Counted from the whole stretch's first letter, positions 11,386-51,283 are shown. The stretch is 57,322 bases of DNA, filler included, from Sphacelaria rigidula (GCA_964200075.2; 5 parts of 5 records of this genome joined end to end with filler, not necessarily neighbours in it); one strand, 5' to 3'. Numbers and translations: made by a program. The notes: a model not told the origin generated them from the letters alone.

Positions 11386-11485
11386 NNNNNNNNNNNNNNN
11401 NNNNNNNNNNNNNNNNNNNNNNNNNNNNNTTAATTAATTAANNNNNNNNNNNNNNNNNNNNNNNNNNNNNNNNNNNNNNNNNNNN
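11386..11485. other. Artificial contig spacer (N44-TTAATTAATTAA-N44)
   Basis: 100-bp block with a six-frame stop linker; identical at four positions about 11,484 bp apart. Confidence 0.97.
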
Positions 11486-15239: not shown

Positions 15240-15660
15240 GTTTTTCATTCTCAAACCGCTTACCTATCCGCTCGCGTTTTGGGAGTTCGGCGGGCTAACT
15301 CGTCGGCTAGTTGCAAGTTATGGACGGTTTGGCGAAGGTAAATCAAGTTGGATATTAGTGCGGTTGTGGCTGGAACTCCACATGTGAAATTGACATGAAG
15401 TATGGCTGCGCCACCGGCACGTTTGAGTAAGGTTTCCTCAAGACTCGATGAATACGCTGTATTATACGCTAATTCAACAAAAAGTAGCAACTCGGCCAAG
15501 TTATCACAAACCGGGGTGCTGTACATGGCCAGCATATTGTGGACAATTCTGTGAACACCCCCCGCCTGTATTTTCGGCCGATAGAGCCTGTCCCGATCGT
15601 ATATTTGGAGAAGTAAAAAGGCTTGTCTTAATAAATTCCACTTACTCATCGCACTAGCGC
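15240..15660 (-). mobile_element. Degenerate Gypsy integrase fragment, opposite orientation to the RT fragment
   Basis: HNMLAMYSTPVCDNLAELLLFVELAYNTAYSSSLEET resembles the end of the integrase core (W..LP.V.FAYNT..HSS...TP). Confidence 0.7.
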
Positions 15661-16634
15661 CGACAAACTATGTTTCCCGGTCAACAACACCCTCCTGAGA
15701 AATGGAGTATGTACTCGTGTCGCCCGACAGTGCTGGAGCCCTGCCTTGGCGTCGAGTGGCTCTAGGTACTAACCAGAGTTTTTCTTCGGTAGGTGTGGTT
15801 CCTGTCGACCGCAGCGCAGAATGTTTGCGCGCTGATCTATCTATACCCGGTTCTGTTGCTTCTTTTTTGGCTCGCGTTTTTCTCGAGTCTGGATCAGCAA
15901 TCACATCAATAATATCACGAACGCGGGCAATGTGTTTTGAGGAAGACCTGTCTATCGGACCTTAATCTGCCGACGCTGGCACTTTTGAGTTCTATCGAAG
16001 AGTAGTCCACGATAATAACCCCCGAAACAACCTGTGCTGCTTTGAAGTTGAGGTACTCCGGGGTGGTATCTCTAAACAGCGCGCGACAGTATGCTGAACA
16101 CGTGATGAATTGGCGTATGCTGCCCACCTCTACATGATCCCCAGCTGGTATGAGCTTCTGGCGTCAAACGTCAATTGTTGAGGGATATCACTGACATGAA
16201 GTGACAGTCCAGCCTGTGTATTCTCCACATCCTGGTCAACAGACGGCATCTATTGCGATAGCAATAGAATCTGCTGCAGTAGATGCCACTATTGTCGTCC
16301 GTCATGGCCATCGATCGGCATGTTTATCTTTCTACTGTCGTTGGCAATGTCTATCGATGGACCAGTTTCCCACACTCTTGTCTGGGCAGCAGTCTGCTAT
16401 GGGCCTACCCCGAAATCTGTTGCGGCCGACCAAGTGCATCGATCGATAGCTTTCCAGCTCCATTGGTGACGACAATGGCTACAAATCGGTTGATGGCGAC
16501 GATGGCTATCGACAGATTGTATACCAATTTGTTTGATGACGGCAATAGCTATTGATAGATTGCGCGTAAATCCATGCATGACATCAATGAACATCGATAG
16601 ATACATGACAGAATCAACTGTGTTATATAATGCC

Positions 16635-16697
<63 letters not shown>
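16635..16697 (+). repeat. (TGT)21 microsatellite
   Basis: Directly visible. Confidence 0.95.
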
Positions 16698-16988
16698 AAT
16701 GCCTACCGACGGGGTTTCTCTGTCGTCTATTGCCACGCCTACATCACAACATACAACGTATAGAGTATATTATACTCCGTTAAGGTACGGTAGACAAGCC
16801 GCAGGTGGACATGCAGTGGGTATATAATGATACTGCTTGCGAATTTATGACATCATGTTCCTACAACTTTGGAACGCTTGTATTTTGTAGGAATTCGCAA
16901 CATGTGTAGACAAAAGTTGTACACTGATGGTTGTCCCTCTGATGGACATGAGCGCTTACGGTACTTTAGTGTGTGGTTGAGATGTGCT

Positions 16989-18075
16989 TATACTCTGGAC
17001 AATGGACTACGTTATAGCACATTGGCGCTGCATTAGCCCCGAAATTTTGACTGTCAGTGTTCATTGTCAGTCATAATCGACCGGCATCAAAGTCTATCGA
17101 TAGCTATTGTAGCTGACAATACATTCGCGGCAAGGGACATGATGTAACGTTGCCGTGACAATGGAGGGGCCCAGGTGCCTATCGATACATTTTATTTGTT
17201 GCAGTAGGCCCTGAATTTTGGCCACCGATGTTTATTGCCAATCACAATAGGATCCATCACGTGGCCACCAGTACATATTGTTGGTCACAATAGGATACCA
17301 ATTGCGCCCACCGATGTTTATTTAGGATCACAATAAAATTGAATCGCGGCCACCAATGTCTACCGCTGGTCACAATGCAATTTGAAGCACGGCCACCAAT
17401 ATCTATTGTTGACCACAAAGTTCGCTGAATGGCGTCGATCGCTGGCGCTGTGTATGCACAATATTTTTCGATTTCATGTTTCCGCCTTATTCCACAGAGT
17501 CTATGGCCCGCTATCGCCTCAGGTCGTTGCGTGTTCATGTGCAAGGGGTATTGCCGTTGATATTATGACACCACTGCCGTGAGCAACCTATTTTCCAAAA
17601 CCTATCGGCGTCACTGGATGTCGATAGATGCTCCCGAGAGCAATCGGTTGTTGACGGCAATGCCCAGATTGGTGAATACCAAAAATGCATTGTTGGCGGC
17701 AGAGGCCACCGATAGACCGCTCACCAAATCTTTTGATGACGGTAATAGGTATTGCTGGATAACTCACTTGATCTATTGATGACGGTAATGACTATCGATG
17801 GATGGCTCACCAAACCTAATGATTACAGCAATGGCTATCGATATATACAACCCAAAATGTATTGCGATACACGATGTCCATCGATGGCGAGCGATATTTA
17901 TCTATTATAATTGCCGAAGGCTGTCGATCGACTATTGCAACATCTATTGTCCGTTGCACTGCATATCAATAGATGTGTTTCACCATCTATCGCGTTCGAT
18001 AATATATATCGGTAGATCTTTCCCCGTGTCTATTGCTGAAACAATGAACAACTATTGCCCATTGTCCAGAGTGTG
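16989..18075. mobile_element. Non-autonomous TIR element with CACAC-type ends (CACTA/CMC-like), filled with ATCGAT-rich repeats
   Basis: Left end TATACTCTGGACAATGG versus right end CCATTGTCCAGAGTGTG; internal degenerate ~40-bp units TTGATGACGGYAATRGCTATCGAT. Confidence 0.6.
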
Positions 18076-18609
18076 GTATTCTCCCAATGCGAGGTACATG
18101 AAGCAGAGTAGTCGTTGGGGCGACATGTTCCGAGTCGATCTGATGGGTGAAGAAACCATGCGAGCGACCTTGACACTTCAGATATCTGTGCAGGTTTAAA
18201 GTTCAACATATCTTTCTTTGCTTCATCCGTCCCGACCCGCTGGATCACTGCTTCATTTGCTTTAGTCGTCCCGCCGCGCTGCAATCACGGTATCGGCACT
18301 ACGCTTCTTATTAGTAACCCCCCACCCCCCCTGCATCGACCGTCCTGCAGCAGCGATCCTAGTAATCTGATGACTCCACGACCATTCGCACCCATAGCAT
18401 GATGACCATCTACCCACGTTTCACATTGGCACCACCTCAGGTTATTTTTGCTGGTTGATTGTCGCAGGCTGCTGCTGAATTTGGAACGGTGCAGGTCGCA
18501 GCAGCAGCAGAGAGACTACCGCGGCCGTGACCCCGTCACTGGTGTTGTCTTGGGGAGGATGCTTTTTGGTGGCACCCACACTGATTGAAACACGACGGCA
18601 CCATATATC

Positions 18610-21405
18610 GTGCCGTGCAGCAGGAGAGTGGAACGCTGCGCCTCACACGTGTGGGCGGGCATGTTCGATATGGTAAGCAGGCGGTCTGGCGAGGTGGGCT
18701 GCTCCACACCATCATCGTCCGGTGCAGCCGGTGGTGGGGGGCCGGAGTTCTGCGTCGCACAAGCGGGCATGGTCGATGTAGTAGGGAGACAATGCGTTGA
18801 GGGAGGCTGCTCCAAACAACCGTCGTTCGCCGAGGCCGGTGGCAGGAAGGCCGAGTTCTGCGCTTCACACGCCCGAGCAGGCATGGTCAATGTGAGGAGG
18901 AAGCGGTGTGGCGAGGAGGGATGCTTGACGAAATCATCGTTCGGCGCAATCAGTAGCAAGAAGGCGGCGTTCTGCGCCACACACGCCCGAGTAGGCATGC
19001 TTAATGTAGCACGCACACGATGCAACGAGGAGGGCTGCTCCAAATCACCATCTTTCGGTGGACCCGTCAAGAGAAAGGCGGAGTATTGCGCCACACACGC
19101 CCGTGCGGGCATGGTCAATGTAGTGAGCAGGCGGTGCGGCGAGGAGAGCTGCTCCGAACACGCACCGTTGGGAACCAGTGGCAGGCCTGCGGAGTTCTGC
19201 GCCACACACGCCCTCGCGGGAAGCAAGCCGTGCGGCGAGGAGGGCTGTTTCACACAACCATCGTTCGGTGCAGCCGGAAGCACAAAGGCGGAGTACTGCG
19301 CCATTCACGCCCGAGCGGGCATGGTCAACGTAATGAGCAAGCGGTGCGGCGAGAAGGGCTGTTTTAAACAATCATCGTTCGGTGCGGCTGGTGGCAGGAA
19401 GTCGGAGTTCTGTGCCACACACGCCCGAGTGGGCATGGTGGACGTCAGAAAGAAACGTTGCGGCGAGGAGGGCTGTTCCACGCTACCATCATTCGGTGCA
19501 GTCGGTGGCGGGAAGGGAGAGTTCTGCGCCACACACGCCCGAGCAGGCATGGTCAATGTGAGGAGGAAGCGGTGTGGCGAGGAAGGATGCTTGACAAAAC
19601 CATCGTTCGGCGCAATCAGTAGCAGGAAGTCGGAGTTCTGCGCCACACACGCCCGAGCAGGCATGGTCACTGTAGTGAGCAGGCGGTGCGGCGAGGAGGG
19701 CTGCCCGAGACACCCATCGTTCGGTGCAGCCGGCGGCAGAAAGGCGGAGTTCTGCGCCACACACGCCCGCGTAGGCATGATCAACGTCAAAAGCAAGCGG
19801 TGCGGCGAGAAGGGCTGCTCCAAACATCCTTCGTTCGGTGCACTCCGTGGCAAACAGGCGGAGTTTTGCGTTACACACGCCCGAGCAGGTATGGTCCATG
19901 TCACGAACAAGCGGTGCGGCGAGGAGGGATGCTTGACGAAACCATCATTCGGTGCAGTCGGTAGCAGGAAGGCGGAGTTCTGCGCCACACACGCCCGAGG
20001 AGGCATGGTCAACGTAGCACGCACGCGTTGCAACGAGGAGGGCTGCTCCAAATCACCATCTTACGGTGAACCCGTCAAAAGAAAGGCGGAGTACTGCGCC
20101 CCACACGCCCGAGCGGGCATGGTCAATGTAGTGAACAGACGGTGCGGCAAGGAGGGCTGCTCCAAACACGCATCGTTGGGAGCCAGTGGCAGGCATGCGG
20201 AGTTCTGCGCCACACACGCCCGTGCGGGCATGGTCAACGTACTACGTAGGCGGTGCGGCGAGACGGGGTGCTCCGTGCGACCATCATTCGGTGCGGCTGG
20301 TGGCAGGAAGGTAAAGTTCTGCGCTGCACACGCCCAAGCGGGCATGATCAGAGTGGTAGGCATGCCGTGCGGCGAGAAGGGCTGTTCCACACGACCATCG
20401 TTCGGTGCAGCCGGTGGTAGGAAGGCGGATTACTGCGCCACCCACGCCCGAGCGGGCATGGTCAACGTAGTGGGCAGGCGGTGCGGCGAGGAGGGCTGCT
20501 CGACACACCCATCGTTCGGTGCAGACGGTAGCAGGAAGGCGGAGTTCTGCGCCACACACGCCCGAGAGGGCATGGTAGACGTCAAAACGAAACGTTGCGG
20601 CAAGGACGGCTGCTCCACGCTACCATCATTTGGTGCAGTCGGTGGTAGGAAGGGAGCGTTCTGCGGCACACACGCCCGTGCAGGGATGATATCCACGAAC
20701 GGCAACAAATACCCCACGCAGCGCTGTTCGAACCGGGTGGGGAAGCAGCAGAGTACCAGCCATCTTGCTGATGAAGATCCTACTATCGCGTCCGATGTCG
20801 CAGGATATGTCCGAGAGGAGAAACGCCCGAGCTATGACTTGGCCTTAGAACAGACTGGTATCAGTATCGATAGACGAGGTGAAGAATCCATTCTCCCACC
20901 AAATGCCGGCCCCAACACGAGCGATGGTGGCCGTGATTCGAGTTCGCGGCCCCGCTCGCGTGTCAGTCGTTCTAGGCGCCGTAAGGCGATTTATACGACC
21001 ACATCGCTTGCCTCCCCAGGTCAGTCCCTCGGCGAGGCGGCAGCAAATGGGGATCCCCTAGGTGCGACAGAGATGCGCATGAACATGAAGATGGAGACGA
21101 CGGTTGCGCCTACGCGACTCGATGATGGGATACGAAGTAGTGAAGTGCTTGCTGTGCGATCCAGCAGCTCCGACGGCATGGCTCATGCCGGCTTCAACAG
21201 CACTATCGAAAACGAGAGCTACGGTTGTAGAATCACGAATGGAGGGAACACAAAGCGGCTACGCCGGACAGCGCAGATGGAATCAGCTCTCGATGTGGCA
21301 GCGTGGAATACCGTAAAATCTGAAAAGATGGAACCCGACGTTAAGTGTGAATTGAATGTGCCTCCTCCCTCTTGTCCCGTGAACCCGTCGTTCCCACGCA
21401 CGTGA
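18610..21405 (+). CDS. EsV-1-7 cysteine-rich repeat protein (18 tandem ~38-aa CCCH repeats plus low-complexity C-terminal tail), single coding exon
   Basis: 931-codon ORF (first ATG at 18661). Repeat consensus GMVNVxxRRCGEEGCxxxPSFGAxGxRKAEFCATHARA (C-x4-C-x16-C-x2-H) matches the EsV-1-7 motif of the brown algal IMMEDIATE UPRIGHT family and Ectocarpus virus protein 7. True start uncertain (18661, 18670 or 18769). Confidence 0.92.
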   Translation: MPCSRRVERCASHVWAGMFDMVSRRSGEVGCSTPSSSGAAGGGGPEFCVAQAGMVDVVGRQCVEGGCSKQPSFAEAGGRKAEFCASHARAGMVNVRRKRCGEEGCLTKSSFGAISSKKAAFCATHARVGMLNVARTRCNEEGCSKSPSFGGPVKRKAEYCATHARAGMVNVVSRRCGEESCSEHAPLGTSGRPAEFCATHALAGSKPCGEEGCFTQPSFGAAGSTKAEYCAIHARAGMVNVMSKRCGEKGCFKQSSFGAAGGRKSEFCATHARVGMVDVRKKRCGEEGCSTLPSFGAVGGGKGEFCATHARAGMVNVRRKRCGEEGCLTKPSFGAISSRKSEFCATHARAGMVTVVSRRCGEEGCPRHPSFGAAGGRKAEFCATHARVGMINVKSKRCGEKGCSKHPSFGALRGKQAEFCVTHARAGMVHVTNKRCGEEGCLTKPSFGAVGSRKAEFCATHARGGMVNVARTRCNEEGCSKSPSYGEPVKRKAEYCAPHARAGMVNVVNRRCGKEGCSKHASLGASGRHAEFCATHARAGMVNVLRRRCGETGCSVRPSFGAAGGRKVKFCAAHAQAGMIRVVGMPCGEKGCSTRPSFGAAGGRKADYCATHARAGMVNVVGRRCGEEGCSTHPSFGADGSRKAEFCATHAREGMVDVKTKRCGKDGCSTLPSFGAVGGRKGAFCGTHARAGMISTNGNKYPTQRCSNRVGKQQSTSHLADEDPTIASDVAGYVREEKRPSYDLALEQTGISIDRRGEESILPPNAGPNTSDGGRDSSSRPRSRVSRSRRRKAIYTTTSLASPGQSLGEAAANGDPLGATEMRMNMKMETTVAPTRLDDGIRSSEVLAVRSSSSDGMAHAGFNSTIENESYGCRITNGGNTKRLRRTAQMESALDVAAWNTVKSEKMEPDVKCELNVPPPSCPVNPSFPRT
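18658..20682 (+). repeat. Coding tandem array of 18 units, mostly 114 bp (EsV-1-7 repeats)
   Basis: Unit starts at 18658, 18766, 18880, 18994, 19108, 19219, 19318, 19432, 19546, 19660, 19774, 19888, 20002, 20116, 20227, 20341, 20455, 20569. Recurrent DNA core TTCTGCGCCACACACGCCCGAGCRGGCATGGTC. Confidence 0.95.
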
Positions 21406-22870
21406 GGAAGGTACGTTGATGAGAGGACGGATGCACACGTTTTTCCGTGTGGCTTCCGGGAAAGTGATCGGGAAAGTGATTGTGCAAGTGAGGTGCCTGT
21501 GCCCAAGGGGTGGGCGGTATCATAGCGCATTATCTTTTTCGTTAACCTCGAAGCAATGCATATACGCCTTTCAATTATCTTCCCGAAGTGGGAAGCTAGA
21601 AAGGGAAAGAGGAGACAACGGCAGATACGGTCATGTTGGTTGATGATCCAACAATACAAGGGGGGGGGTGAAATGAGAGGGAAAAGGGTGGGCGGTGATG
21701 GGTGTTCCAAAACAACGAAGGAAAAAATGTCTGTTCGAGAACCACGATGAGGGGGAGAGACGGCGTTTTTATCATGTGGGAGTCCCATCCTGTTGATGTC
21801 GATTGAATTTCCCTCCACAGCCGCGTGGGGCAAGTGTTGTTGGCTCCCGGTCCATCCACTACATCGTGTGCGGGTTGGGCTGTTTCGACATTTTAGATGG
21901 CGACGAGATGGACGACTATGAACTACGCGGGGTGCTACATACTCGAAGCGCTGTATTCCTCATATCCCGGCCTCACGCGAGATCGCTTCCGACCTCGAAC
22001 GAGGGCTGCGTGGGCGTTCAAGGAGGGCAGGAGTTAATCAGACAGATTGAACATCCGCATGGAGTTTACTCGATTGCAGGAAGCAACGAACACACTTTCA
22101 ACCCATGTTCATGGTTTTTGTCGTACGTGCAGTAGCTTATTTCGTCTTGTATAGGCGAGAATTGGAGAAAAGACGTATGTCGCTCTTGACGTGTACATGA
22201 ACCATCACAAGCAGAAATGTGTATCTCCTCCTTCACTGGGCCTGCACCGCAAGCACAACGAAGTCGTATCGCAGCGAATTTCCGAAAATAAGTACTCGAC
22301 AATACTATGCACCTAGGTGACTTTCTTTTGCAACTGTTTCGCTGTTCTGCTGCGAAAAAACGTCTCGCGTCAGGGTACGCAAGGGTCTTCTGAGGTAATA
22401 TTGCCTCGCAATGAATCGAGGTGCCCCATTAATCCGTGCAGTAGTGATTGAAGTGGTGGTGGTGGTGGTGGTGGCGGTTGCGCCATTTTGCGCCGCAGGT
22501 TGACGACGAGTCGAATATCTATCCGAAAGATGATCAGTTGCACCTTTTCAATTATTGGGCGGAACGTTCACGTGTCGCATAGCAGAAATTCCTGCCGCCG
22601 CTCGCGTGGATATTTCAGCTGTTCTTGTGTACAGACTCGGGAGGAGGGCATGAAGAAACTTGGAAAATGTTCGTAACACTGAACCACAGACTGTACTTTC
22701 CAAAACGTGTACTGCGAACAGTATCGACTATAAAGTAGTTCATTCGTGAAGTGAATAGTAGACAACGACTGAAGAGTCATCCTACGATAGGGGGGGGGGG
22801 GGTTTTGGGCTATTTGTTGCTCGAAATTTCGAGTCAAATCGTCGTTGAAAGCAGCAACGGTTGTTCGGAC

Positions 22871-22970
22871 NNNNNNNNNNNNNNNNNNNNNNNNNNNNNN
22901 NNNNNNNNNNNNNNTTAATTAATTAANNNNNNNNNNNNNNNNNNNNNNNNNNNNNNNNNNNNNNNNNNNN
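22871..22970. other. Artificial contig spacer
   Basis: Same N44-TTAATTAATTAA-N44 linker. Confidence 0.97.
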
Positions 22971-24769: not shown

Positions 24770-27700
24770 ATGCATCGTGCCCAGCATTCGATCGTCCGGC
24801 TGGGTTCCACGCCAGTAGCGCGTCGGGGTTTGAGCCCGTCAGCATGCTTCGGACGCTCAGGTAGCAAAGGAGCAGTGACCAGCACAGCGCAGCGGCGTGC
24901 TTCGACAAGACGACATGCTAGTGCTGTTGCTGGAGGGTATGGGCGCCGTGAGGAGGGTCTGGCAGGTTCGACGGGTGAACTTGTTTGTGGTGTAGATATA
25001 TCGGTGTCGTCGACAAACCGGTGGTCCACTACTTCGTCCTTCCAGTCTCAGGTGCGCGCAACGCAAAATATCAAAATTCAATTTGCCCCTGTACTGACGG
25101 TACTGTACCGTACTGTACAACAGTACTGTTGTTGTGATGTTTTGACTGTACCCTACTCTTACTGTACCGCACGTGATGCTTCAGCGGTAGACGATAGCGT
25201 TCGCACCAGTGCTGGTCGCGTCTACCCTACTACATTGTACTGCCTCTACTGACAGACCATAAAATGCTGACCTACTGTACAGTATAATTAGAGCAGTATC
25301 GCAGGAGCACGTGAAGTCATTGTGAAGCCCATCCTATTGCCTGATTTATCGGTGTTGAAGAGAAGGAGATCTACTTATTTTGCCCGTGACCAGGGCACGG
25401 GCAGGGATTGAGGGGCGCAGTGCATGATGTCATGATGTCCTCTGAAATATGTCCCATGTCTACTCAAATGTTGAGTCAGCGGGATGCTCTGCAGTTCGTG
25501 GACTGTTTGCACAGATGTGGGCACTTGGGGCTTCGCAAAATTACAATGCCACATCTTGTAGTGTCGTCTTGCGGAGCTTATCATTGTGCCGCTGCGACTG
25601 TCGCTTTGGCCCCGGCAGAGACTTTTTTTTTTTTTCAACTAGTACGTGGCAGCTCGCTTACGATACTTTGAGACAGGCACCTAGCTTTTGCAGCATGTTC
25701 AGGACCCCGTAGCTGTCAACTTGGGGACGCTCGAAATATGTACAGCAGCCTCTTGGTGGCTTTGTTTTCAAGCGGGACCGGTATCTTCGGCATTTGGAAA
25801 ATATTTTTTCCCATGCTATACTCGCTTCATGTGTCGGAGCATTGCGAATCTCGAATCCCAATTCAAACCAACTCATGGAGTCGAAGCGGTGGCCACACCT
25901 TGGTTACGATCCCACAGCTTGAGTGCTGCCGCGCATCGCAGCATCCGCATACTGCCCGAGCATGACGACGCTTTACACTTTCGCGATGCCTTCAAATCAG
26001 TCAGCCCCACTCCCATGCCTCAAAAGTTGTGCCCAACAGTACACATGCAGCACAAGAACATACAGCCCTCGCCCTCTATTATCGCACAGCCGGTGGAAGC
26101 CACAGAGGCAGCATCTTCAACGGAAACACCCTCAGCAACGGAGCTGGAAACAGCACCCATACCGCCTATCAACGGCTCGCAGGCTACACCGCTATCAACG
26201 TCGTTGTTGGTAGATACCAGCGCCGGAACTAGTCTCAACTCTCGGCCGCGACCGCCTCAGCCGCCGCCGCCACGGCACCAATATCAGCGACGCCATCAGA
26301 CGCCATACCAACGAAGAGAGCACACTCAGCACCTGAAGCAGCTACGAAAAGAGGAAGCGGGGGCAGCGGCCGCGGCCGCGCGACGCAAGTCAGGGCTGCT
26401 GAACGAGAGCTCGCAGGCACCACCGCTGTTGATAACTCAAATCGCCGGTCGCCAGGTCCCCGCCACCACCCGAGAGGCCGTCGCGATCAATTTGGAGGCC
26501 CGTCAGAAGATCGAAAACCCACCGCGGCAGCAACGGCAACAACAAGCAAAGCTAAAGCGGAAGCAGAAGCTGCAGTCGCCCCAGACCTGCCACGAGGAAT
26601 CCCCGCCGTCCCCGCCGACACCGGCATTCCGCTTTGTCACCGAGGCACACAAGCAGCAGCTGGGAAGGGCCGGTGGCAAGAGGGGGCAGCGGGAGCAGGC
26701 CAATGGTGGCGGTGTCTCAGATAGTGTTGTTCATGCTGATATTGATCTTGCTGCTGCTGCTTCTGCAGGAGTGGTAGGGGTTCCCGCGTGGGGTATGGTG
26801 GACGGGGGCGATGCGGTCCCGCGAAAGGCGGCCGGGCTAACCAGCGGCTGTTCTTCCGGTGCTGGTGTTCCTGATGCTGGTGCTGGCCCTGATGTTGCCA
26901 AAGCGGCGATACGGCCCGCGTGGGAGGTGGTGGAGAGCGGCGACGTGGAGGCGGCGGCCGGTCGGGGGCGAAGAAAGCCGCTGTTTTTCTTAAAGCCGAC
27001 TGCGCCCGCAATGACGAAAATGCCGCCGCCGAGGTTAGACTTCAACGAGCAGATTGAGCTGTTCACAAAGAAGCGGCAACTACTCGACGTGGCAAACGTT
27101 TGGGAGGTCAGTCAGTCAGTTCGTCAGTCAAGCAGACAGGCAGGCCTGCCAGATATGAAGTGTGGCGTACTTGTGTACACCTACATATAGTTTCGTTTCC
27201 CCCGAGATTCGTTTATTTTTGGTAAACATAACACCGTGTGTACGAAGGCTGGTCTAACATTCGCATGAGGGTTGTAGATTTCCTGTTCGTGGCACTTTTT
27301 TTCGGAAACAGCGACGACAGATTCCATGAGTTAATGTGGGGGCCCCAGCAACCATTTCGTGCCCGGGCTACAAAGGTTATTCCCCATAATTTGTTTTACT
27401 AGCATAAATAGTGGTGTGCGAGATGCCAACTGATTCCATCGTGAGGTTTACAATGTTGCAACATTCACACGGCAGTGTAACATTAGCGATATGGCAGTGT
27501 AGCAAGATGAAAATAGGGCACTCGACAAAAACGGGTTTACCCACCCTTTTTCAGCCAAGAAGTGGGTACAGGTGAACACGAAAGTTGGGTGCCCGTGCTA
27601 GGCTGAAAAAGGGTTGGGTACACACATTTTTTTGTACTGCCCGTTGGTAGTACATATAATATATAAGCAACAACCGATGAATTACCCCCTCTCCTTCTAC

Positions 27701-30700: not shown

Positions 30701-33293
30701 TGCTAGCTACATCAGCAGGGCAACGGGATATTTTTTTTGTACCGGAAAGCAATTCTTCTGATTGTTGTGATTTTTCGCCTTCTAGATGAACGATAGCAGT
30801 GCTGGTGTATGGGTCAGACTACGAGTATCTTGTACACTGTATTCGCTACCGTGTGTGCCCCCCTTCCCCTCCCGTAGTACTATTGATGAAGACGAACACG
30901 CACACATGGCGCGTTTGCCGTTTCTCGATACGTTACATCTCGTGCGCGTGCGTGAGTGCGTGCGTGCTTTCAAGGTTTTGGTCCATCACAGGCAGTGAGG
31001 TACTGTAGGTCATGACCCTTGAACCACCAGGGGTGGGTCATCGGGATTCTACATCAGGTTTTCATGTAAGAATGATGCCCATTCCGACACGTCACCTACC
31101 TACCCTGGCTTTTTCTCTCTTCGCATGTTTTCCGTTGTGTGCGAGTGTTACACGCACAACACACACACGCACACACACATGGAGATGCAAGCGGTATATG
31201 CGTCAGTTGTACCTCATTTCCGTTTCGGAACAATTTTCGGTGAGGCCGCATGGGGGAGGAGGGCAAGGTGCTTGCGGGTGCTCTTGATTATATTCAACGT
31301 TGAAACTGTTATACGAGGCTCTTGCAAAGCTCTCGTTGCGGTGACGTGTCTTGAACATGTGAAGAACCTTTCGAAAAATTGGTTCGCCGAGCCCTCAAAT
31401 GTATCGTGAAAAATTGTGGAGCAAAAAGAAGGTTCATCTGAAAATGACTGTCACATACTTAACACTACTATTAAATATTACCGTTTTTTTATCGGCATGA
31501 GCCCCGGCCCGGCCGCGATAGGAGAGGATTGACTAGCGTGCTCTTGCTGTCGTTACGCTTTCGTTGCGACCATGGTCCTGGTTTTTTTCCTTTGTCTTTT
31601 ACTTTTTCTGTTTTTTTTCACCATCACTTTCCCCCCCCCTTTTTTGCTCTTCTGTTTGTTTTTCTTGTTTTGGGTTTGTGTGTGCATGCCCTGCTTGCGT
31701 CTGTGCCCGACTTCCTTTGTTCCCTCTGTGTGTTTAAGTGTGTGGGGGTGTGTCCTATTTCTGTGCTATTGTGTCATCGGCTCATCTGTTTATTTTTTTT
31801 TATTTTTCCTGTTTTTTGGCGACTTTTTTTTTTCTTGTGCAGGCGTGCCAAGTGACGGGGATGGGCAGGCGTGCGGTAGACGTCATGAACCGACTGAACA
31901 GCTCCCTCACGGACAACAAGGTCAGTATCATTTAAAGACATTTTGTGAAGAAATTCGCGTACACATGTAAAATTATGTACATATGATCGATTGACTAATT
32001 GATTGATTCGCGCTTTAACTGACCCCCCAGGGATCCAGCCGTGGTCACGTGATAGCCATATATATATATTTATGCTATACCCTCCCATTCCCCCCTCGCC
32101 AAGAGAACATTCCGCTCCTAGCTTGCCAAATCAGTTGGCCATCATGTGTCGAACTGGGCAGGAGGGTGTATCTTTTGGAACAAAATCGCTGGCCGACAGT
32201 ACGGCCGATTAGTTGTTGAACAAGAGGAAGGGGGGGGTGTAATCACGATCTTGCATGCCGTTAGTCAGAAGGCCATTGACCTCGCATCTCTAGACATCCG
32301 GGACGGAGCACACGGGATTTTCGACGGACTAGGGGGTACCCATGATCTTGCATGCCATAGTCATGTGACCATTGACCTCGCATCCCTACAAGGCCGGGAC
32401 GGAGCATGCCTGCTTTTGGCCGGACCAGGCTCGCAATCAATCACCAAGCGCGAAGCGCCGTGCTGTGTTCGGCGAGTCGCATGACGAGTCAGCTACATCT
32501 TGCTAATATTGTTCGGCCCGAAGCCTACTGATTATCCTGCATTTGTATGACAGCCTCGAATGAGTTGCTTCTTTTTCTGGTATGGCCACTTCCAGGGACA
32601 GCCACGGCTTACACGCTGCCTCATGGGTGTCTCACCATTTGAACACTACCTAGTATGATCATCCCCTGTGCGACTTCAACGTACAAAATTTTACACATGT
32701 GCATGTCAGTTTTGTGCCAAAGCTTCACCATGGCTGCATCGACTCCCTCTCCCAGGAGACTGCGGTGTAATGCTGGTTATTTAACTACGGTCGTACTGTA
32801 CCTGCCCTTGTCCTCTAGGTAAAGGGGCGCGCCGGGGGGGGTAGGTACAAGATAATCTCAACACCACCCCAAGTAAGAAAAAAAAAGAATGTGGAAATCC
32901 GAAAAGAGAAAAAGTAGTGCTGTTGCACACACCCGGTCTGAAAAATGATCCGCGTCGTGTTTTGTGCTTCTTGAGTCATACTGATATTCAGGTTGTACCC
33001 CTAACGTCAAGTCTCGATTCTCCCTAATTTTTCTTCTCTCTTTTCCTCAACCCCCCACTTCCATGTGTGTGGGCATGTTTTATGTCTATCCTTGTGCTTG
33101 TCTCGTGTGTGTGTTCCCCCCCGTTTGTTTTCAGCCGTTCCGACCATCGAGCGTGTTCATGTACAACCTCCTGCTCGCCGCGAGCAAAGAAGGCTTGGTG
33201 GAGGATGTCAAGTCTTTTTACGACCTGTCGAAGACCCTGGGCATCCCGCCAAATGCCAAAGTCCTGAACTCCCTTCTTCAACTCTTCACGGAG
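24770..33293 (+). CDS. Pentatricopeptide repeat (PPR) protein, probably mitochondrial; 5' part, gene runs off the contig
   Basis: Exons 24770-25051 (R/S/A-rich transit-peptide-like start), ~25694-27106 (acceptor uncertain), 27745-27831, 30354-30452, 31843-31920, 33135-33293, with GT-AG boundaries that join in frame. PPR-like helices: KEVYDHMNKRRVEPDTQTYQDYMRACQVTGMGRRAVDVM and MYNLLLAASKEGLVEDVKSFYDLSKTLGIPPNAKVLNSLL. Confidence 0.8.
28027..28268. repeat. Inverted repeat (MITE-like) next to a (TA)n tract in a PPR intron
   Basis: CCCCGTCTCACCTCAATTTTGCGA..CGAAATTTCGTACGGAGGAAGA versus TCTTCCTTCGTACCAAATTTCG..TCGCAAAATTGAGGTGAGACGGGG. Confidence 0.75.
28918..29222 (+). repeat. Dispersed repeat shared with 54135-54400
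   Basis: GGCCGTGCGTGC..GCGTGACGCTGCTGCACC..CACTCCGACACGCCA..TGAGGCGCAC..CAATACGACGCCAATC occurs in both contigs 3 and 5. Confidence 0.8.
29232..29329. mobile_element. 98-bp piggyBac-type MITE
   Basis: TTAA-CCCTTAGACCGCGAG ... CTCGCGGTCTAAGGG-TTAA: perfect 15-bp TIR, CCC/GGG ends, TTAA target duplication. Confidence 0.85.
29682..29858. mobile_element. Short MITE with related CACAC ends
   Basis: CACACCCTGGATGAATATG..ATAGTTGCA ... TGCAACTATTGACCATATATGGTCATTGTCCGGGGTGTG; a related sequence lies at about 6810-6963. Confidence 0.6.
32230..32666 (-). mobile_element. Same ~335-bp dispersed repeat: full copy (32332-32666) plus adjacent partial copy
   Basis: CATGATCTTGCATGCCATAGTCATGTGACCATTGACCTCGCATCCCTACAA..., reverse-complement match to 9721-10057. 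Confidence 0.85.
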
Positions 33294-34354: not shown

Positions 34355-34454
34355 NNNNNNNNNNNNNNNNNNNNNNNNNNNNNNNNNNNNNNNNNNNNTT
34401 AATTAATTAANNNNNNNNNNNNNNNNNNNNNNNNNNNNNNNNNNNNNNNNNNNN
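34355..34454. other. Artificial contig spacer
   Basis: Same N44-TTAATTAATTAA-N44 linker. Confidence 0.97.
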
Positions 34455-34544: not shown

Positions 34545-35632
34545 ACAAACTCTGCTCCAGTGCACTGTAAGTTGACATCGCTAGAAGGACACTACCATAA
34601 CCACCTTGCCGGCTGCCAGACTGTCAGATTCTCAGGGCGTAGGATCCGCTAGCACTGCTACTGTCCGTACTGGGGTGTTGCCCCCTTGTCAGGTACGTTT
34701 CGAACACGGGATCTTACATATTGGGGATGGATCTTTTATTGGGGATGAGAAACCCGGAGAATTAAAATCTTCGTATCCACAGTACATCTTCGAAACATGG
34801 TTCCGTTTCTTCACCTACTGATAGCCATTGACAACTGCTACACACCATACAAATTTGGATTTCGATCACCGACATGTTGAGGTCCTTAGTGAAAAAACAA
34901 ATTTGGGGAATTTCGGGTGTCCGAATGGACGCCAAAATGGTTCCGAGGTTATTTTTTTTGCCTAGTATCTCAACTTTTCGGTGATCGAAACTCAAATTTC
35001 TATGGCGTGCGGCAGTTGTCAATAGCTATCAGTAGGTGAATGAATGAAACCATATTTTGAAGATTTGATTTGGATACGAAGATTTTAATTCCCGGGGTTC
35101 CTCATCCCCAATTTGTAAGATCCCGTGTTTTTGGAGCATGATACTAGATCATCGTTCCTTGTACATGGGCACCAAACGCTGGGGGTTCTCACTCAAGCCT
35201 TCGATTTGGAGGATCATACTAGGTCGGCAGCCGCAACTCCTGTGTATCCAGGTGCCCCTTGGAGCAGGATGCGTTTTGTGTCTGTTTATCCCCCAAAAAC
35301 CGAGATCGATAGGGGTTTTAGAGTGGAAAAATCTAGCAAAAAAAGTGTTGCAAGAATCCGATCGCAAGAATCTTGGCGGCGCAAAAACGGAGTCGGAAAC
35401 AAACAGTGGATCGAATTTTTACCCGCAGCAGAAACCAACAAGAATCCGATCGCAAGAATCTTGACGCAAAAACGGAGTCGCAAACAAACAGTGGATCGAA
35501 TTTTTACTCGCAGCAGAAACCAACAAGAATCCGATCACAAGAATCTTGACGCAAAATCGGAGCCGCAAAAAAACAGTTAGTCGAATTTTTACCCGCAGCA
35601 GAAACCAACTTCACTTTGTGAAATTGGAATTG
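34545..35632 (+). repeat. Second copy of the contig-1 repeat, carrying a nested foldback insertion and a 3-unit minisatellite
   Basis: Colinear with 1135-1652 except for the insertion at 34703-35129 and the triplicated ~87-bp unit at about 35352-35610. Confidence 0.9.
34703..35129. mobile_element. 427-bp foldback MITE with long terminal inverted repeats and a probable 4-bp TSD
   Basis: AACACGGGATCTTACA...TGTAAGATCCCGTGTT ends; inverted similarity extends over most of each half; flanks TTCG / TTTG; absent from the paralogous site at about 1295-1302. Confidence 0.85.
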
Positions 35633-45838: not shown

Positions 45839-45938
45839 NNNNNNNNNNNNNNNNNNNNNNNNNNNNNNNNNNNNNNNNNNNNTTAATTAATTAANNNNNN
45901 NNNNNNNNNNNNNNNNNNNNNNNNNNNNNNNNNNNNNN
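45839..45938. other. Artificial contig spacer
   Basis: Same N44-TTAATTAATTAA-N44 linker. Confidence 0.97.
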
Positions 45939-49000: not shown

Positions 49001-49824
49001 GAAGGTCCCAGGCTCCACAATGGAGGGTTGAACCGGTATTGGAGATAATCCAGAACCCAGCTGTCAAAAATCACATGTGTCCTCGGACCACGTCCGCTGA
49101 ATAGGTGAGCGGGCTGCGAACACCGTTATGTAGATACCATATATCGAAAGAGGATGAGTGACCGTGAATTACGGGATATAACACCCCCCGTGGTGAGTAT
49201 CTCACTGCGTGTTTTTCGACATCTGAATCCAGCACGCCGCCAAAAGCTACCTGGTTGAACGCATCCCGTCGTAGTTCTCCTAGGAGTAGCATCTTCCGAA
49301 GGTGTAGGGTTTCGGTATCTCGAGAAATGCGATCCCGAAAATCCATCGCGTAGCGTGTTGTACTTACTGTACTGTGTTGTAAGGACCGAACGAACATGAA
49401 GCGTTACACTGGAGACTACAGGAGAGCACAACACAAAATGGCGTGGCGCAGCGCAGGGCGGGGTGCCTTGCCTCGTTTTTTGAAACGAATACGGTATACT
49501 ACAACTACTACATCTCATAATGGAATGAAATATAGTGTAACAACTCTCACAAGCAACTCCCAAAACGGAATATATCGGGCACCTTCGGTCCCGGAAAGAG
49601 TTGGCCTTGTGGCTGCGCTCGTAGTCCACAAGGAGGGTTTTCTCTCTGCGCTGGGTGGCCTGACCGCGAGCCCTGGCCACGTTCCTCTTTTCGCCCTTGA
49701 CTTTGCGATTGAAGACATCGTGTTTCTTGTGAGTGATCCCGCGAGACTCGAAAGGGTTATCTGCAACAATCTCGAGCGACTTGGCAGACTTGCCCACCAC
49801 GGATTTCCGGTGGGCACTCATCAT
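46036..49824 (-). CDS. NOP14: Nucleolar protein 14 (SSU processome), 5' four exons; the rest lies beyond the contig edge
   Basis: Exons 49583-49824, 46857-47124, 46368-46583, 46036-46100 join in frame: NPFE..KKHDVFNRKVKG..RREKTLLVDY..KANSFRDRRFGEDD..EEKM..FNL..LTHRGRAL..KTRQELLNEIIAQSK..DDYDLIMRELAYEARAQATDRLQT, the Nop14 N-terminal signature. Confidence 0.9.
48717..48996. mobile_element. Tc1/mariner-like MITE in NOP14 intron 1
   Basis: TA-CAGTATTGGACGCCTGAACTATTTT ... AAAATAGTTCATGCGCCCACTACTG-CA. Confidence 0.6.
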
Positions 49825-51283
49825 ATTTGGGCACTGGTGGATGCTCGAAGTCTGCAAGCTGATGCTTGACTATCGCAGATGGTGACACCAGTGCTATCCC
49901 TGATTTAGTGTCACGTTGTTTATCACCTTACAAATTACCAAGAACAGTGGAGTTAATAAACTCGATGAAGCGCTTGATCACAGTATACTGGGGGGAAACT
50001 ATAAGCCATAACTAAATGTTCCTCGTTCGAGAACTCCGACTCAATGTTGTTCACCGCAGTGCACCAACGGACAACGGATACTTTCCCCCCAAGGCGGCAC
50101 AGAAAATACACCAGTTATATGAAGTAGATTGTCGTTTTCCATCCCGACATCTGATTCTTAACGAGCCATGTACTGATAGAGTGTCCTGCACTGTACAGTA
50201 TCATCCTAGGGTATCAAGGTACGACACTGCACTTGAAGGATTAGTCAGCGCCTGCCTGCTTTTCGGATTCACACACGAGTACGCAGCACCACAGTCATGC
50301 AGAAAATGACTGTCTGTGTACAGAATTGTTTCGTAAATCTGTTACACTGTGTCTGTTCCATAAAACGGTCCCCCCCATTTTGAGTTCGCAAACTGTAGCG
50401 AATTATTTGAGTCTTCCCAGGATATCTTGAAAATCGGAGTCTAAATGAAATTGGTCTCAGATTCTATCTATACAGAGTCAACCAACGAGCGGCAAATACT
50501 TTTGCACAAATGGTACATGAATACCTATTCAGTGAGTGCCTTGGGTGCGTAATCTAGAATCGGTGCGGGGTACCGTACCCCGGTATCGATATTATCCAGG
50601 GGATGAGATTGTCTCACACCACACTATGCTTGCATTCTCGGACCCGCGATGTCGAGTCTGTTGTCACCATAATCCGCGGTTCGCGGGGAGACGATGAGGG
50701 GGGGGTGAAGTTACCTCATCTGCAGTGGTAGTAGTCCACCGTTCCTTTTCAACGCGACTAATCGTTTCACCTGAGCAAAATTTCTGGGAAGAATGCTACT
50801 TAAATTTGGAGGAGGCAACAAGCTCGAGGTTGGTATTTCTACTGGTCCATTTTCTCATCAGGGGCGAGCTCTGTAAGGCCTCGATCTTCAATACAACCTC
50901 TTATGTTTTACACCAAAAATGTTGAACAACTAAAGAGGTAGGTATACTAAAACATGTAAGACTCTTCGCCGGCGACGTACACGATTGGCGGACCAATTGC
51001 ATAATTCCCGTAACATTGCGGCCACACGAGAGACACCCCGACAAATGCAAATTTCGTGTGCGAACGGGAACTTACTGGCACACATCAACCGACGGTTTTA
51101 TTATGATATGAAGGCAAGTTTTGTTCGAATAGAAAATGACATGCCGGGAGCGTGGGTTGAACCCAATCCGGCTTCTCATACGCACTCTCTCTGCATTCGC
51201 CGTGTGATTACCCGATTCCGATCCTCGTCCAACTTCTGTTCCCACTTCTATCGTTACCCACACCTTCCGGCCGTCTACCTATC

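What the first reader, a model, noticed from the sequence alone, without database searches (positions are those of the whole stretch)
18658..20682. EsV-1-7 array looks like a modular recognition protein: fixed CCCH scaffold with hypervariable positions
Seen in sequence: 18 tandem units share a near-invariant scaffold (GMVxV...RC.EEGC...PSFG...K.EFC.THAR). Variation concentrates in the triplet after Cys2 (STP, SKQ, LTK, SKS, SEH, FTQ, FKQ, STL, LTK, PRH, SKH, LTK, SKS, SKH, SVR, STR, STH, STL), the residues before the RC (VSR, VGR, RRK, ART, MSK, RKK, KSK, TNK, VNR, LRR, KTK) and the loop after FG. The residue just before PSF is mostly Q/K/H/R/S, side chains that commonly contact bases, and the array is strongly basic. 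Established: EsV-1-7 repeats are an expanded brown algal family (IMMEDIATE UPRIGHT), are shared with Ectocarpus virus EsV-1 and have been proposed as zinc-finger-like; I know of no defined ligand or recognition code. Inference: this may be a repeat-coded nucleic-acid-binding system analogous to TALE RVDs, C2H2 fingers or PPR codes, used in development or antiviral/anti-transposon surveillance.
Basis: partly seen in the sequence, partly recalled or inferred. Interest (0 to 1): 0.85.

Follow-up and report, generated by a model that had tools for sequence, protein, structure and literature searches.

The report
Long EsV-1-7 zinc-repeat gene, brown alga
This is an intact gene for a very basic protein made of 17 good copies (plus one decayed copy) of the known but functionally unexplained EsV-1-7 zinc-binding repeat; it most likely binds DNA, but nothing here shows a TALE-like reading code.

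Summary
Window 18658-20682 holds 18 tandem 38-residue units. Seventeen have an intact Cys3His pattern. Pfam PF19114 matches with E 1.6e-226. The units lie in one open frame, with a likely coding sequence at 18661-21405 (914 aa).

Codon site models place 18 of 38 positions in a neutral class and find no class with omega above 1 (LRT 0). Repeated triplets come from recently duplicated sister units.

This is a new member of a known family. Its nearest relatives are Sphacelaria rigidula paralogues that share its C-terminal tail.

DNA binding gains indirect, family-level support:
- In giant-virus contigs, 74 of 105 EsV-1-7 array ORFs carry a C-terminal domain with a conserved PD...ExDExxH motif. 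A model of one such domain has a PD-(D/E)xK nuclease-like fold.
- A published Ectocarpus transposase carries the repeat at its N-terminus.

This scan had already noted the viral fusion on other DNA. The window's gene has no nuclease. A unit-by-unit code remains untested and has no support here.

The parts
18466..18660 (+). Leader in front of the coding sequence. Public-run contigs lie on the window from 18466 onward. An AG sits at 18466-18467 behind a T-rich stretch, so this may be a splice acceptor.
   Evidence: table 8: 456-letter contigs of X5, X6 and X8 match 18466-18895 without gaps, and their first 26 letters do not match the window. Searches give the sequence. This is only a weak hint.
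18559..18588 (+). Short upstream ORF of 9 codons, in frame with the main ORF and closed by TGA at 18586-18588.
18661..21405 (+). Likely coding sequence, 914 codons plus stop. It begins at the first in-frame ATG after the in-frame stop.
   Evidence: The stop-to-stop frame runs 18589-21405.
18658..18765 (+). Unit 1, degenerate: no Cys1, and Gln in place of His.
18766..20682 (+). Units 2-18: 17 EsV-1-7 repeats with an intact Cys3His pattern and a 114-bp period. Sister units are u3/u9/u12, u4/u13, u5/u14, u8/u18, u10/u17 and u6/u16.
20683..21402 (+). C-terminal tail of 240 residues with no Pfam family. It is shared with a set of Sphacelaria rigidula EsV-1-7 proteins.
   Evidence: 0 families; 23 relatives at E<=1e-3.
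20944..20985 (+). Ser/Arg-rich basic cluster in the tail, partly conserved among the tail relatives.
21250..21267 (+). Conserved T-K-R-L-R-R motif. That it resembles a nuclear localisation signal is recalled, not tested.
   Evidence: the K-R-L-R-R core is exact in 8 of the 11 aligned tails, this one included, and differs by one residue in the other three.
21340..21354 (+). Conserved V-K-x-E-L motif. That it fits the hydrophobic-K-x-E SUMO-site consensus is recalled, not tested.
21406..21943 (+). Downstream flank, covered by the same 1407-letter public-run contig as the end of the coding sequence. It may be 3' UTR.
   Evidence: table 8: 20537-21943 in X1, X5 and X6. The ends are the same in the run that may be DNA, so this gives no transcript end.

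Best explanation
The locus is an intact cellular gene of a brown alga, with its nearest relatives in Sphacelaria. It encodes a 914-residue, strongly basic protein: one decayed and 17 intact EsV-1-7 repeats, followed by a lineage-specific 240-residue tail.

Inferred: each 38-residue unit folds as a small zinc knuckle around one Zn ion held by C10, C15, C32 and H35. The units are joined by short basic linkers (positions 6-9) into a flexible string of beads.

Inferred from fusions of the same repeat elsewhere: the array is a nuclease-less DNA-binding module that lies along DNA. Conserved basic residues (R9, R27, K28, R37) would hold the backbone. The variable polar positions give each unit some individuality.

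Shown: the variable positions evolve at or below the neutral rate, not under diversifying selection. The array grew by duplication of single units and blocks.

Inferred: the tail carries basic, NLS-like motifs and presumably the effector or regulatory function.
For: Membership and anatomy:
- Pfam PF19114 matches at E 1.6e-226 in 17 stretches.
- There are 17 Cys3His motifs, all in one 931-codon frame.
- The AF2 model of units 7-12 has pLDDT 78.1, with only small beta bridges and a 3-residue helix at C-x-x-H.
- Its best viral match is EsV-1-7 of Ectocarpus virus 1: E 8.9e-25, TMq 0.67, 46% identity.

Selection on the units:
- M1a fits much better than M0 (LRT about 31). It gives 46% of sites at omega 0.155 and 54% at omega 1.
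- My M0 likelihood equals IQ-TREE's, -1082.05.
- All four zinc ligands are kept in 17 of 18 units here, against 25 of 43 units in 11 tail-sharing relatives.

Charge: pI 9.54, K+R 107 against D+E 52.

DNA link by fusion:
- These hold 105 ORFs with 2-16 units.
- 74 of the 105 carry a PD...ExD[EG]xxH motif.
- All 73 tails of 150-270 residues form one BLAST cluster.
- One tail, modelled with a 29-tail alignment, has pLDDT 87.8 and pTM 0.78.
- That model matches PD-(D/E)xK nucleases in the PDB: McrC E 2e-4, R2 endonuclease 1.7e-3, Hjc 3.6e-3, Vsr 0.03.
- BFVD hits with E<=1e-3 include 4 named 'Endonuclease' and 1 named 'DNA primase' among 28.
- PMC12477816 (passage) reports a transposase with an N-terminal EsV-1-7 domain.
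- PMC12629598 (passage) says the family has been hypothesised to be zinc-finger transcription factors.

Unit individuality is maintained in viruses.

Cellular context: a Nop14-like exon lies at 49129-49869 on the - strand, and the viral nuclease-tail HMM has no hit in any of the six frames of the window.
Against: - No zinc or DNA binding has been measured for any family member in the papers I could read.
- The window's gene has no nuclease. Its tail is unrelated to the viral one (hhalign probability 0.2), so the DNA-binding argument rests on homology of the repeat alone.
- There is no solved relative by sequence; the best is a chance cytochrome c3 match at E 0.11. There is none by fold for the array either: 0 of 18 listed matches reach E<=0.001.
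- pTM of 0.41 means the relative placement of units is not predicted.
- Half of each unit fits neutral evolution.
- Many paralogous units have lost zinc ligands: 18 of 43. This shows the subfamily tolerates decay.
- Expression is not shown.
- The viral nuclease assignment rests on a predicted fold with modest TM-scores (0.37-0.45). Sequence hits are sub-threshold: Hjc E 0.89, MTES_1575 E 0.011 and Hjc 0.25, each in 1 of 29 members.
Confidence: 0.55

Rival explanations
1. One reading: a repeat-coded reader. Each unit would recognise one base or short step of DNA or RNA through the residues at 16-18, helped by 6-8 and 24-26, as in TALE RVDs, C2H2 fingers or PPR codes.
For: - Position 18 is Q, K, H, R or S in 15 of 17 units.
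- Family-wide the same position is mostly R, Q, H or T, in 277 units. In 307 viral units it is R, Q, I or T.
- Arrays are fused to nuclease-like domains in viruses.
- Close viral relatives differ by whole-unit gaps of 38-41 residues.
- Variable positions are conserved between corresponding units of related viral proteins, with dN/dS 0.31.
Against: - There is no omega>1 class (LRT 0). dN/dS of the nine positions is 0.86 over all pairs and 0.53 over sister pairs.
- 18 of 38 positions vary freely, not one or two.
- Family-wide, positions 11-13, 23, 34 and 37 vary as much as these.
- In one viral pair, L022 and L026, the units within each array are nearly alike and whole arrays differ at the same positions. 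This is concerted change, not unit-wise coding.
- pTM of 0.41 gives no regular superhelix.
Confidence: 0.13
2. A zinc-stabilised scaffold for protein-protein contacts or another polyanion, not for sequence-specific nucleic-acid binding. This would resemble LIM, RING or PHD arrays.
For: - The only PDB fold matches of the array, all non-significant, are zinc-binding or Cys-rich modules of varied function: nsp13 zinc-binding domain, PHD, LIM, hevein repeats.
- Gene models in other algae join the repeat to unrelated domains: MFS transporter, ETF, SIR2, methyltransferase, RdRP (Pfam column).
- The conserved tail could be the working part.
Against: - The dominant fusion partners seen here act on DNA: the nuclease-like domain in 74 of 105 viral ORFs and a transposase.
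- The net positive charge is very high.
- The algal fusions may be errors of gene prediction; I did not check them.
Confidence: 0.17
3. An RNA-binding Cys3His array.
For: The Cys3His ligand set and strong basic charge are also typical of RNA-binding fingers; this is recalled. One hit joins the repeat to an RNA-dependent RNA polymerase family (PF05183).
Against: The spacing C-x4-C-x16-C-x2-H is not that of the classical CCCH finger, and no Pfam zf-CCCH match appears at E<=0.01. The fusion partners found here are DNA enzymes.
Confidence: 0.08
4. A recently expanded, functionless or decaying family copy. The ORF would be open only because the array is young.
For: - Paralogues show many broken units, 18 of 43.
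- Half of the sites fit omega 1.
- The gene is flanked by very high-copy repeats.
- Expression is not shown.
Against: - The frame of 938 codons has no stop.
- 17 of 18 units keep all four ligands although synonymous divergence between units is high (pS 0.41 over all pairs).
- 46% of sites sit at omega 0.155.
- The tail has conserved islands across 11 aligned sequences.
Confidence: 0.07

Closest known systems
EsV-1-7 cysteine-rich repeat family (Pfam PF19114 / IPR043822). Includes Ectocarpus IMMEDIATE UPRIGHT and gene EsV-1-7 of Ectocarpus virus 1.
   Same: Same repeat, same Cys3His spacing and same tandem 38-residue period. The predicted fold matches viral EsV-1-7 at E 8.9e-25. The family is greatly expanded in brown algae and has no known biochemical function (passages).
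   Different: It has 17 intact units, more than in any of the 74 relatives (at most 13) or the 105 viral ORFs (at most 16). There is no N-terminal non-repeat domain, so it is not an IMM orthologue as defined in the methods passage. It has its own C-terminal tail, shared only with Sphacelaria proteins among the named hits.
Giant-virus EsV-1-7 array fused to a Vsr-like / PD-(D/E)xK nuclease domain. For the nuclease half, compare the 'EDxHD' homing endonucleases such as I-Bth0305I (PMC3239194, abstract read).
   Same: Homologous repeat array with the same 38-residue period and a similar per-position variability profile (Spearman 0.57).
   Different: The window's protein has no nuclease domain, is more basic per unit (+3.8 against +1.9) and lies in a cellular genome. 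The link of the viral domain to I-Bth0305I itself was not reproduced here: 3r3p was not among the listed hits. Only Vsr appeared, at E 0.03, along with other PD-(D/E)xK nucleases.
C2H2 zinc-finger arrays, TALE repeats and PPR repeats (modular nucleic-acid readers).
   Same: Tandem small units with a fixed scaffold and variable surface positions. Whole-unit gain and loss occurs between relatives.
   Different: There is no sequence or fold relation. Variation is spread over about half the unit rather than two to four code positions, and there is no sign of diversifying selection. No ligand is known.
Plant WRKY19-type zinc finger repeat (Pfam PF24906, Zf_WRKY19).
   Same: The stretch around Cys1-x4-Cys2 resembles the start of that profile. 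A relative, P0005, passes the family's cut-off (35.3 bits against 27) on the same repeats that match PF19114.
   Different: The window's own units do not reach it (E 5.9, 7.3 bits).
TcMar-2_Ec32 transposase of Ectocarpus with an N-terminal EsV-1-7 domain (PMC12477816, passage).
   Same: The same repeat family, used next to a DNA-acting enzyme.
   Different: The window's gene has no transposase. I did not see the transposase sequence.

Membership tests
EsV-1-7 cysteine-rich repeat family (PF19114) | Match to the Pfam model above its gathering score | tested here: met
   732.2 bits against a cut-off of 25, E 1.6e-226, 17 stretches.
EsV-1-7 cysteine-rich repeat family (PF19114) | Cys-x4-Cys-x16-Cys-x2-His pattern in tandem units of about 38 residues | tested here: met
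   15 units have x16 and 2 have x15. One unit is degenerate. The period is 114 bp.
EsV-1-7 cysteine-rich repeat family (PF19114) | Fold like the viral founder protein EsV-1-7 | tested here: met
   Foldseek against BFVD: Q8QNQ2, E 8.9e-25, TMq 0.67, 46% identity. Both structures are predicted models.
EsV-1-7 cysteine-rich repeat family (PF19114) | Zinc binding (proposed for the family, not shown) | not testable with these tools
   Only the conserved ligand set and the model's knuckle-like secondary structure speak for it.
IMMEDIATE UPRIGHT orthologues | IMM-specific N-terminal domain in front of five repeats (definition in the methods passage of 10.1101/2024.02.19.579948) | tested here: not met
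   The coding sequence starts inside unit 1, an in-frame stop lies 72 bases upstream, and there are 18 units. The IMM sequence itself was not compared.
Giant-virus EsV-1-7 array nucleases (Vsr-like / PD-(D/E)xK C-terminal domain) | C-terminal domain of about 200 residues with the motif R-P-D ... E-x-D-E-x-Q-H ... N-P-D | tested here: not met
   An HMM of 29 viral tails has no hit in any of the six frames of the window at E<=1. hhalign of the window's tail against A2 gives probability 0.2.
TALE / C2H2 / PPR-like coded repeat | Few code positions that vary against an otherwise constant unit | tested here: not met
   18 of 38 positions fall in the neutral class. Entropy exceeds 1.2 bits at 14 positions.
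TALE / C2H2 / PPR-like coded repeat | Diversifying selection or unit-specific conservation at the code positions | tested here: inconclusive
   There is no omega>1 class within the array. In viral relatives, corresponding units keep these residues (dN/dS 0.31). No orthologue of the window's gene was available.
TALE / C2H2 / PPR-like coded repeat | Sequence-specific nucleic-acid binding that scales with unit number | not testable with these tools
   Needs binding experiments.
Classical CCCH (C-x8-C-x5-C-x3-H) RNA-binding finger | The spacing and a Pfam zf-CCCH match | tested here: not met
   The spacing differs. The only other Pfam match at E<=0.01 is zf-primase, which is below its cut-off.
Zf_WRKY19 (PF24906) | Match above the gathering score of 27 bits | tested here: not met
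   7.3 bits, E 5.9, on two of the window's units. The relative P0005 reaches 35.3 bits.

The most novel reading that the evidence does not exclude
EsV-1-7 arrays would be a further natural class of modular DNA readers, in which each zinc unit contacts a short step of DNA. Giant viruses would use them to aim Vsr-like nucleases. Brown algae would have kept nuclease-less arrays such as this 17-unit one as long-site DNA-binding regulators, or as decoys against the viral nucleases. The variable residues after Cys2 and in the linker would set the target.
Probability: 0.12. Interest if true: 0.85.

Novelty: new member of a known kind. Interest (0 to 1): 0.4.

Why it matters
EsV-1-7 proteins form the largest orthogroup across brown-algal genomes. 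The family includes the developmental regulator IMM and counts 2018 members in 31 genomes. No biochemical function is known for it (passages). If the repeat is a DNA-binding module, as its fusions to nuclease-like domains and a transposase suggest, hundreds of brown-algal genes per genome become candidate DNA-binding regulators. This gene has 17 intact units in a single exon and no other domain, which makes it a convenient test piece. In itself the locus is an ordinary, though long, family member.

Tried and rejected
- Whole-genome search: no genome is held for this window.
- Earlier notes on this genome: none.
- PDB by sequence with units 7-12: only a chance cytochrome c3 match, E 0.11.
- PDB by fold with the array model: 18 matches at E<=10, none at E<=0.001.
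- ESM Atlas, leaving out PF19114: no usable hit.
- The search for related loci in viral contigs with one protein: one pattern match, no relative confirmed. With alignment A1 it gave an error because no stretch was conserved enough. I then scanned with a degenerate DNA motif.
- Pfam on the viral tails: no significant family. MTES_1575 E 0.011 and Hjc 0.25, each in 1 of 29 members. The PDB profile search gave only weak hits, RING fingers at E 0.036 and Hjc at 0.89.
- Expression: no RNA holder listed. Three runs of one study that the tool only guesses to be RNA have contigs on 18466-18895 and 20537-21943 and almost no depth on 18132-18392 and 22308-22568. A run that may be DNA is even at about 67. 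This cannot count as evidence of transcription.
- The many 'joints' inside the array also occur in the possible DNA run. I read them as assembly paths between similar units or paralogues, not as splicing.
- Summed depths inside the array are no copy number.
- Positive selection: tested and not found. One start of the M2a optimiser ran to infinity and was discarded. One search repeated it with bounds.
- Viral insertion as the context: no viral nuclease tail in the window, and the only Pfam hit among 10 other long ORFs is cellular Nop14.
- Macaisne et al. 2017 (doi 10.1242/dev.141523) is not held. I know it only through citing passages.
- Supplementary tables, such as Table S17 of 10.1101/2024.02.19.579948, were closed. 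They may list repeat numbers or this gene's relatives.
- No paper in the held library joins 'EsV-1-7' with 'endonuclease' in the viral sense. One paper holds both terms, the Ectocarpus TE paper. 'PF19114' or 'IPR043822' occur in two papers only.
Full report
WHAT IS THERE. Window 18658-20682 is a tandem array with a 114-bp period. Tandem Repeats Finder gives 17.1 copies at 73% matches, and a 342-bp super-period at 77%. It lies inside one long frame on the + strand: 931 codons from 18610, or 938 from stop to stop at 18589-21405. An in-frame TGA lies at 18586-18588. The first in-frame ATG is at 18661, so the likely coding sequence is 18661-21405, 914 codons.

Pfam PF19114 (EsV-1-7 cysteine-rich motif) matches at E 1.6e-226 in 17 stretches. 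Cutting at the G-M-V anchor gives 18 units. Seventeen have C-x4-C-x15/16-C-x2-H, and no further copy of the motif exists in any frame of the 57 kb. Unit 1 has lost Cys1 and His.

WHERE THE VARIATION LIES. In units 2-18, G1, M2, V5, C10, C15, C32, H35 and A36 never change. Entropy is highest at positions 24, 18, 6 and 7, followed by 17, 8, 4, 13, 16, 25 and 26.

The 18 triplets are only 13 different ones. The repeated ones sit in units that are recent copies of each other:
- u3/u9: 94% DNA identity.
- u5/u14: 91%.
- u4/u13: 90%.
- u8/u18 and u10/u17: 89% each.
- u3 or u9 against u12: 87%.

The variability profile follows that of the whole family. Spearman correlation is 0.59 against 277 distinct canonical units from the 74 database relatives and 0.57 against 307 units from viral ORFs. 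Several positions that are constant here (11-13, 23, 36-37) vary family-wide. Part of the 'scaffold' is therefore a feature of this subfamily rather than of the fold.

SELECTION. I built a codon alignment of units 2-18 and an IQ-TREE codon tree, then fitted M0, M1a and M2a with my own code. My M0 likelihood equals IQ-TREE's, -1082.05.
- M1a gives 46% of sites at omega 0.155 and 54% at omega 1, lnL -1066.17.
- M2a gives the same likelihood with omega2 at 1.0, so the LRT is 0.
- Eighteen of 38 positions have a posterior above 0.8 for the neutral class.

Over six independent sister pairs the values are 0.53 and 0.43. So there is clear purifying selection on about half of each unit and no sign of diversifying selection on the rest.

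Caveats: the alignment has only 38 codons, gene conversion between units is possible, and branch lengths were fixed up to a scale factor.

STRUCTURE. AlphaFold2 on units 7-12, with shifted copies of the array and 18 relatives as the alignment, gives pLDDT 78.1 but pTM 0.41. The units are locally confident, with small beta bridges and a three-residue helix at C-x-x-H. Their mutual arrangement is not defined.

The bridges pair the M-V-x-V strand that follows each C-x-x-H with the S-F-G strand before it. This fits Pfam's register (Cys1 to V5 of the next unit) and makes positions 6-9 the linker. I therefore could not test whether the variable residues share one face.

No solved structure is related by sequence or by fold. 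In the viral model library the top match is EsV-1-7 of Ectocarpus virus 1, at E 8.9e-25.

RELATIVES AND CONTEXT. The best full-length relative has only 47% identity over 58% of the query and is a Sphacelaria rigidula protein. The 240-residue tail has no Pfam family. It does have 23 relatives at E<=1e-3, the best at 7.4e-31 and 39% identity.

Of the 10 I looked up, 8 are named, and all 8 are Sphacelaria rigidula. They carry 3-7 units in front of the same tail. The tail has conserved islands, including T-K-R-L-R-R and V-K-x-E-L. That these resemble a nuclear localisation signal and a SUMO site is recalled, not tested. In those relatives only 25 of 43 units keep all four ligands, against 17 of 18 here.

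The window also holds a Nop14-like exon and no viral nuclease domain. This fits a cellular chromosome. The gene is flanked by very high-copy repeats.

WHAT THE REPEAT DOES ELSEWHERE. Four of the 28 significant viral fold matches were named 'Endonuclease' and one 'DNA primase', so I scanned viral contigs with a degenerate motif. The results were:
- 105 ORFs with 2-16 units.
- 74 of the 105 carry a PD...ExD[EG]xxH motif.
- All 73 tails of 150-270 residues form one BLAST cluster.

Twenty-nine representative tails align with invariant D70, R81, D83, E96, D98, E99, H102, R113, R130, N132, P133 and D134. Pfam and PDB sequence searches give only sub-threshold hints, Hjc and MTES_1575. One of these tails, modelled with that alignment, has pLDDT 87.8 and pTM 0.78. 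It matches PD-(D/E)xK nucleases: McrC at 2e-4, the R2 endonuclease domain at 1.7e-3, Bax1, Hjc at 3.6e-3, BstEII, EcoRI, and Vsr at 0.03.

Twenty-three of the 99 other stored proteins also carry this tail (HMM E<=1e-28). None of them bears a brown-algal name.

Close viral relatives differ by gaps of 38-41 residues, that is, by one unit. So in viruses these residues are kept, not free.

In one pair, L022 and L026, each array is internally homogeneous and the two arrays differ at the same positions in every unit. That is concerted change rather than unit-wise coding.

After these steps I found that this scan had already described the viral array-nuclease fusion on other genomes. Those notes name the EDxHD homing endonucleases as the closest nuclease, and one note saw no fixed-position code. 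I read the abstract of that paper (PMC3239194). I did not reproduce a match to I-Bth0305I itself.

LITERATURE. From passages read:
- It forms the largest orthogroup, and in Ectocarpus it has no other Pfam domain (10.64898/2026.04.27.720984).
[quoted passage not shown] Macaisne et al. 2017 was not available. Supplements were closed.

VERDICT. The locus is a new, unusually long member of a known family, intact and under purifying selection on its zinc scaffold. The most likely mechanism is a flexible, basic, multi-zinc-knuckle array that binds DNA. The DNA-binding step is inferred from fusions of the homologous repeat to DNA enzymes, not shown. Roles in development or defence remain open.

Noticed in passing
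window 11386-11485, 22871-22970, 34355-34454, 45839-45938: Four pairs of 44-base N runs, each pair split by 12 bases, recur every 11484 bases (352 N in all). The even spacing looks like masking or a construction artefact, not biology.
   Followed up: no
window 15522-18131 and 22569-22800: The flanks of the gene collect summed contig depths of 10^4-10^5 in a public run, where unique parts sit near 67. They are very high-copy repeats, probably transposon-derived. A 43-bp tandem repeat lies at 17720-17842.
   Followed up: partly
window 18516-20717, - strand: Several long antisense ORFs (262, 248, 109 and 95 codons) run through the array. They follow from the repeat's biased codon content and are not evidence of genes.
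   Followed up: no
window 49129-49869, - strand: ORF fragment matching the N-terminus of Nop14 (Pfam PF04147, E 6.2e-15). It is a cellular nucleolar gene exon.
   Followed up: no
window 25685-27187, + strand: A 501-codon open frame in a GC-rich kilobase (0.62). It is rich in Pro, Gln and Ala, of low complexity, and has no Pfam family.
   Followed up: partly
window 35351-35609 and 32247-32429: Tandem repeats of 85 bp (3 copies, 91% matches) and 96 bp (1.9 copies).
   Followed up: no
P0005 (database relative): Its EsV-1-7 repeats also pass Pfam's cut-off for the plant WRKY19-type zinc finger (PF24906, 35.3 bits against 27). This hints that the two repeat families are related, although the EsV-1-7 family is described as absent from land plants.
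   Followed up: partly
viral loci, e.g. L028 vs L070 and L017 vs L108: Closely related giant-virus array proteins (85-92% identical) differ by a single gap of 38 residues, exactly one repeat unit.
   Followed up: partly
L022:743-1990 and L026:7403-8650: These are two viral array-nuclease proteins of equal length. Units within each array are nearly alike, while the arrays differ from each other at the same unit positions. This is concerted evolution of the array. At the nine variable positions there are 24 non-synonymous and 3 synonymous differences, against 67 and 51 in the scaffold (Fisher p 0.0017).
   Followed up: partly
one search hits P0021, P0031, P0049, P0063, P0075: Gene models in green algae and other protists join EsV-1-7 repeats to MFS transporter, ETF, methyltransferase, SIR2 or RNA-dependent RNA polymerase domains. 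I did not check whether these fusions are real or prediction errors.
   Followed up: no
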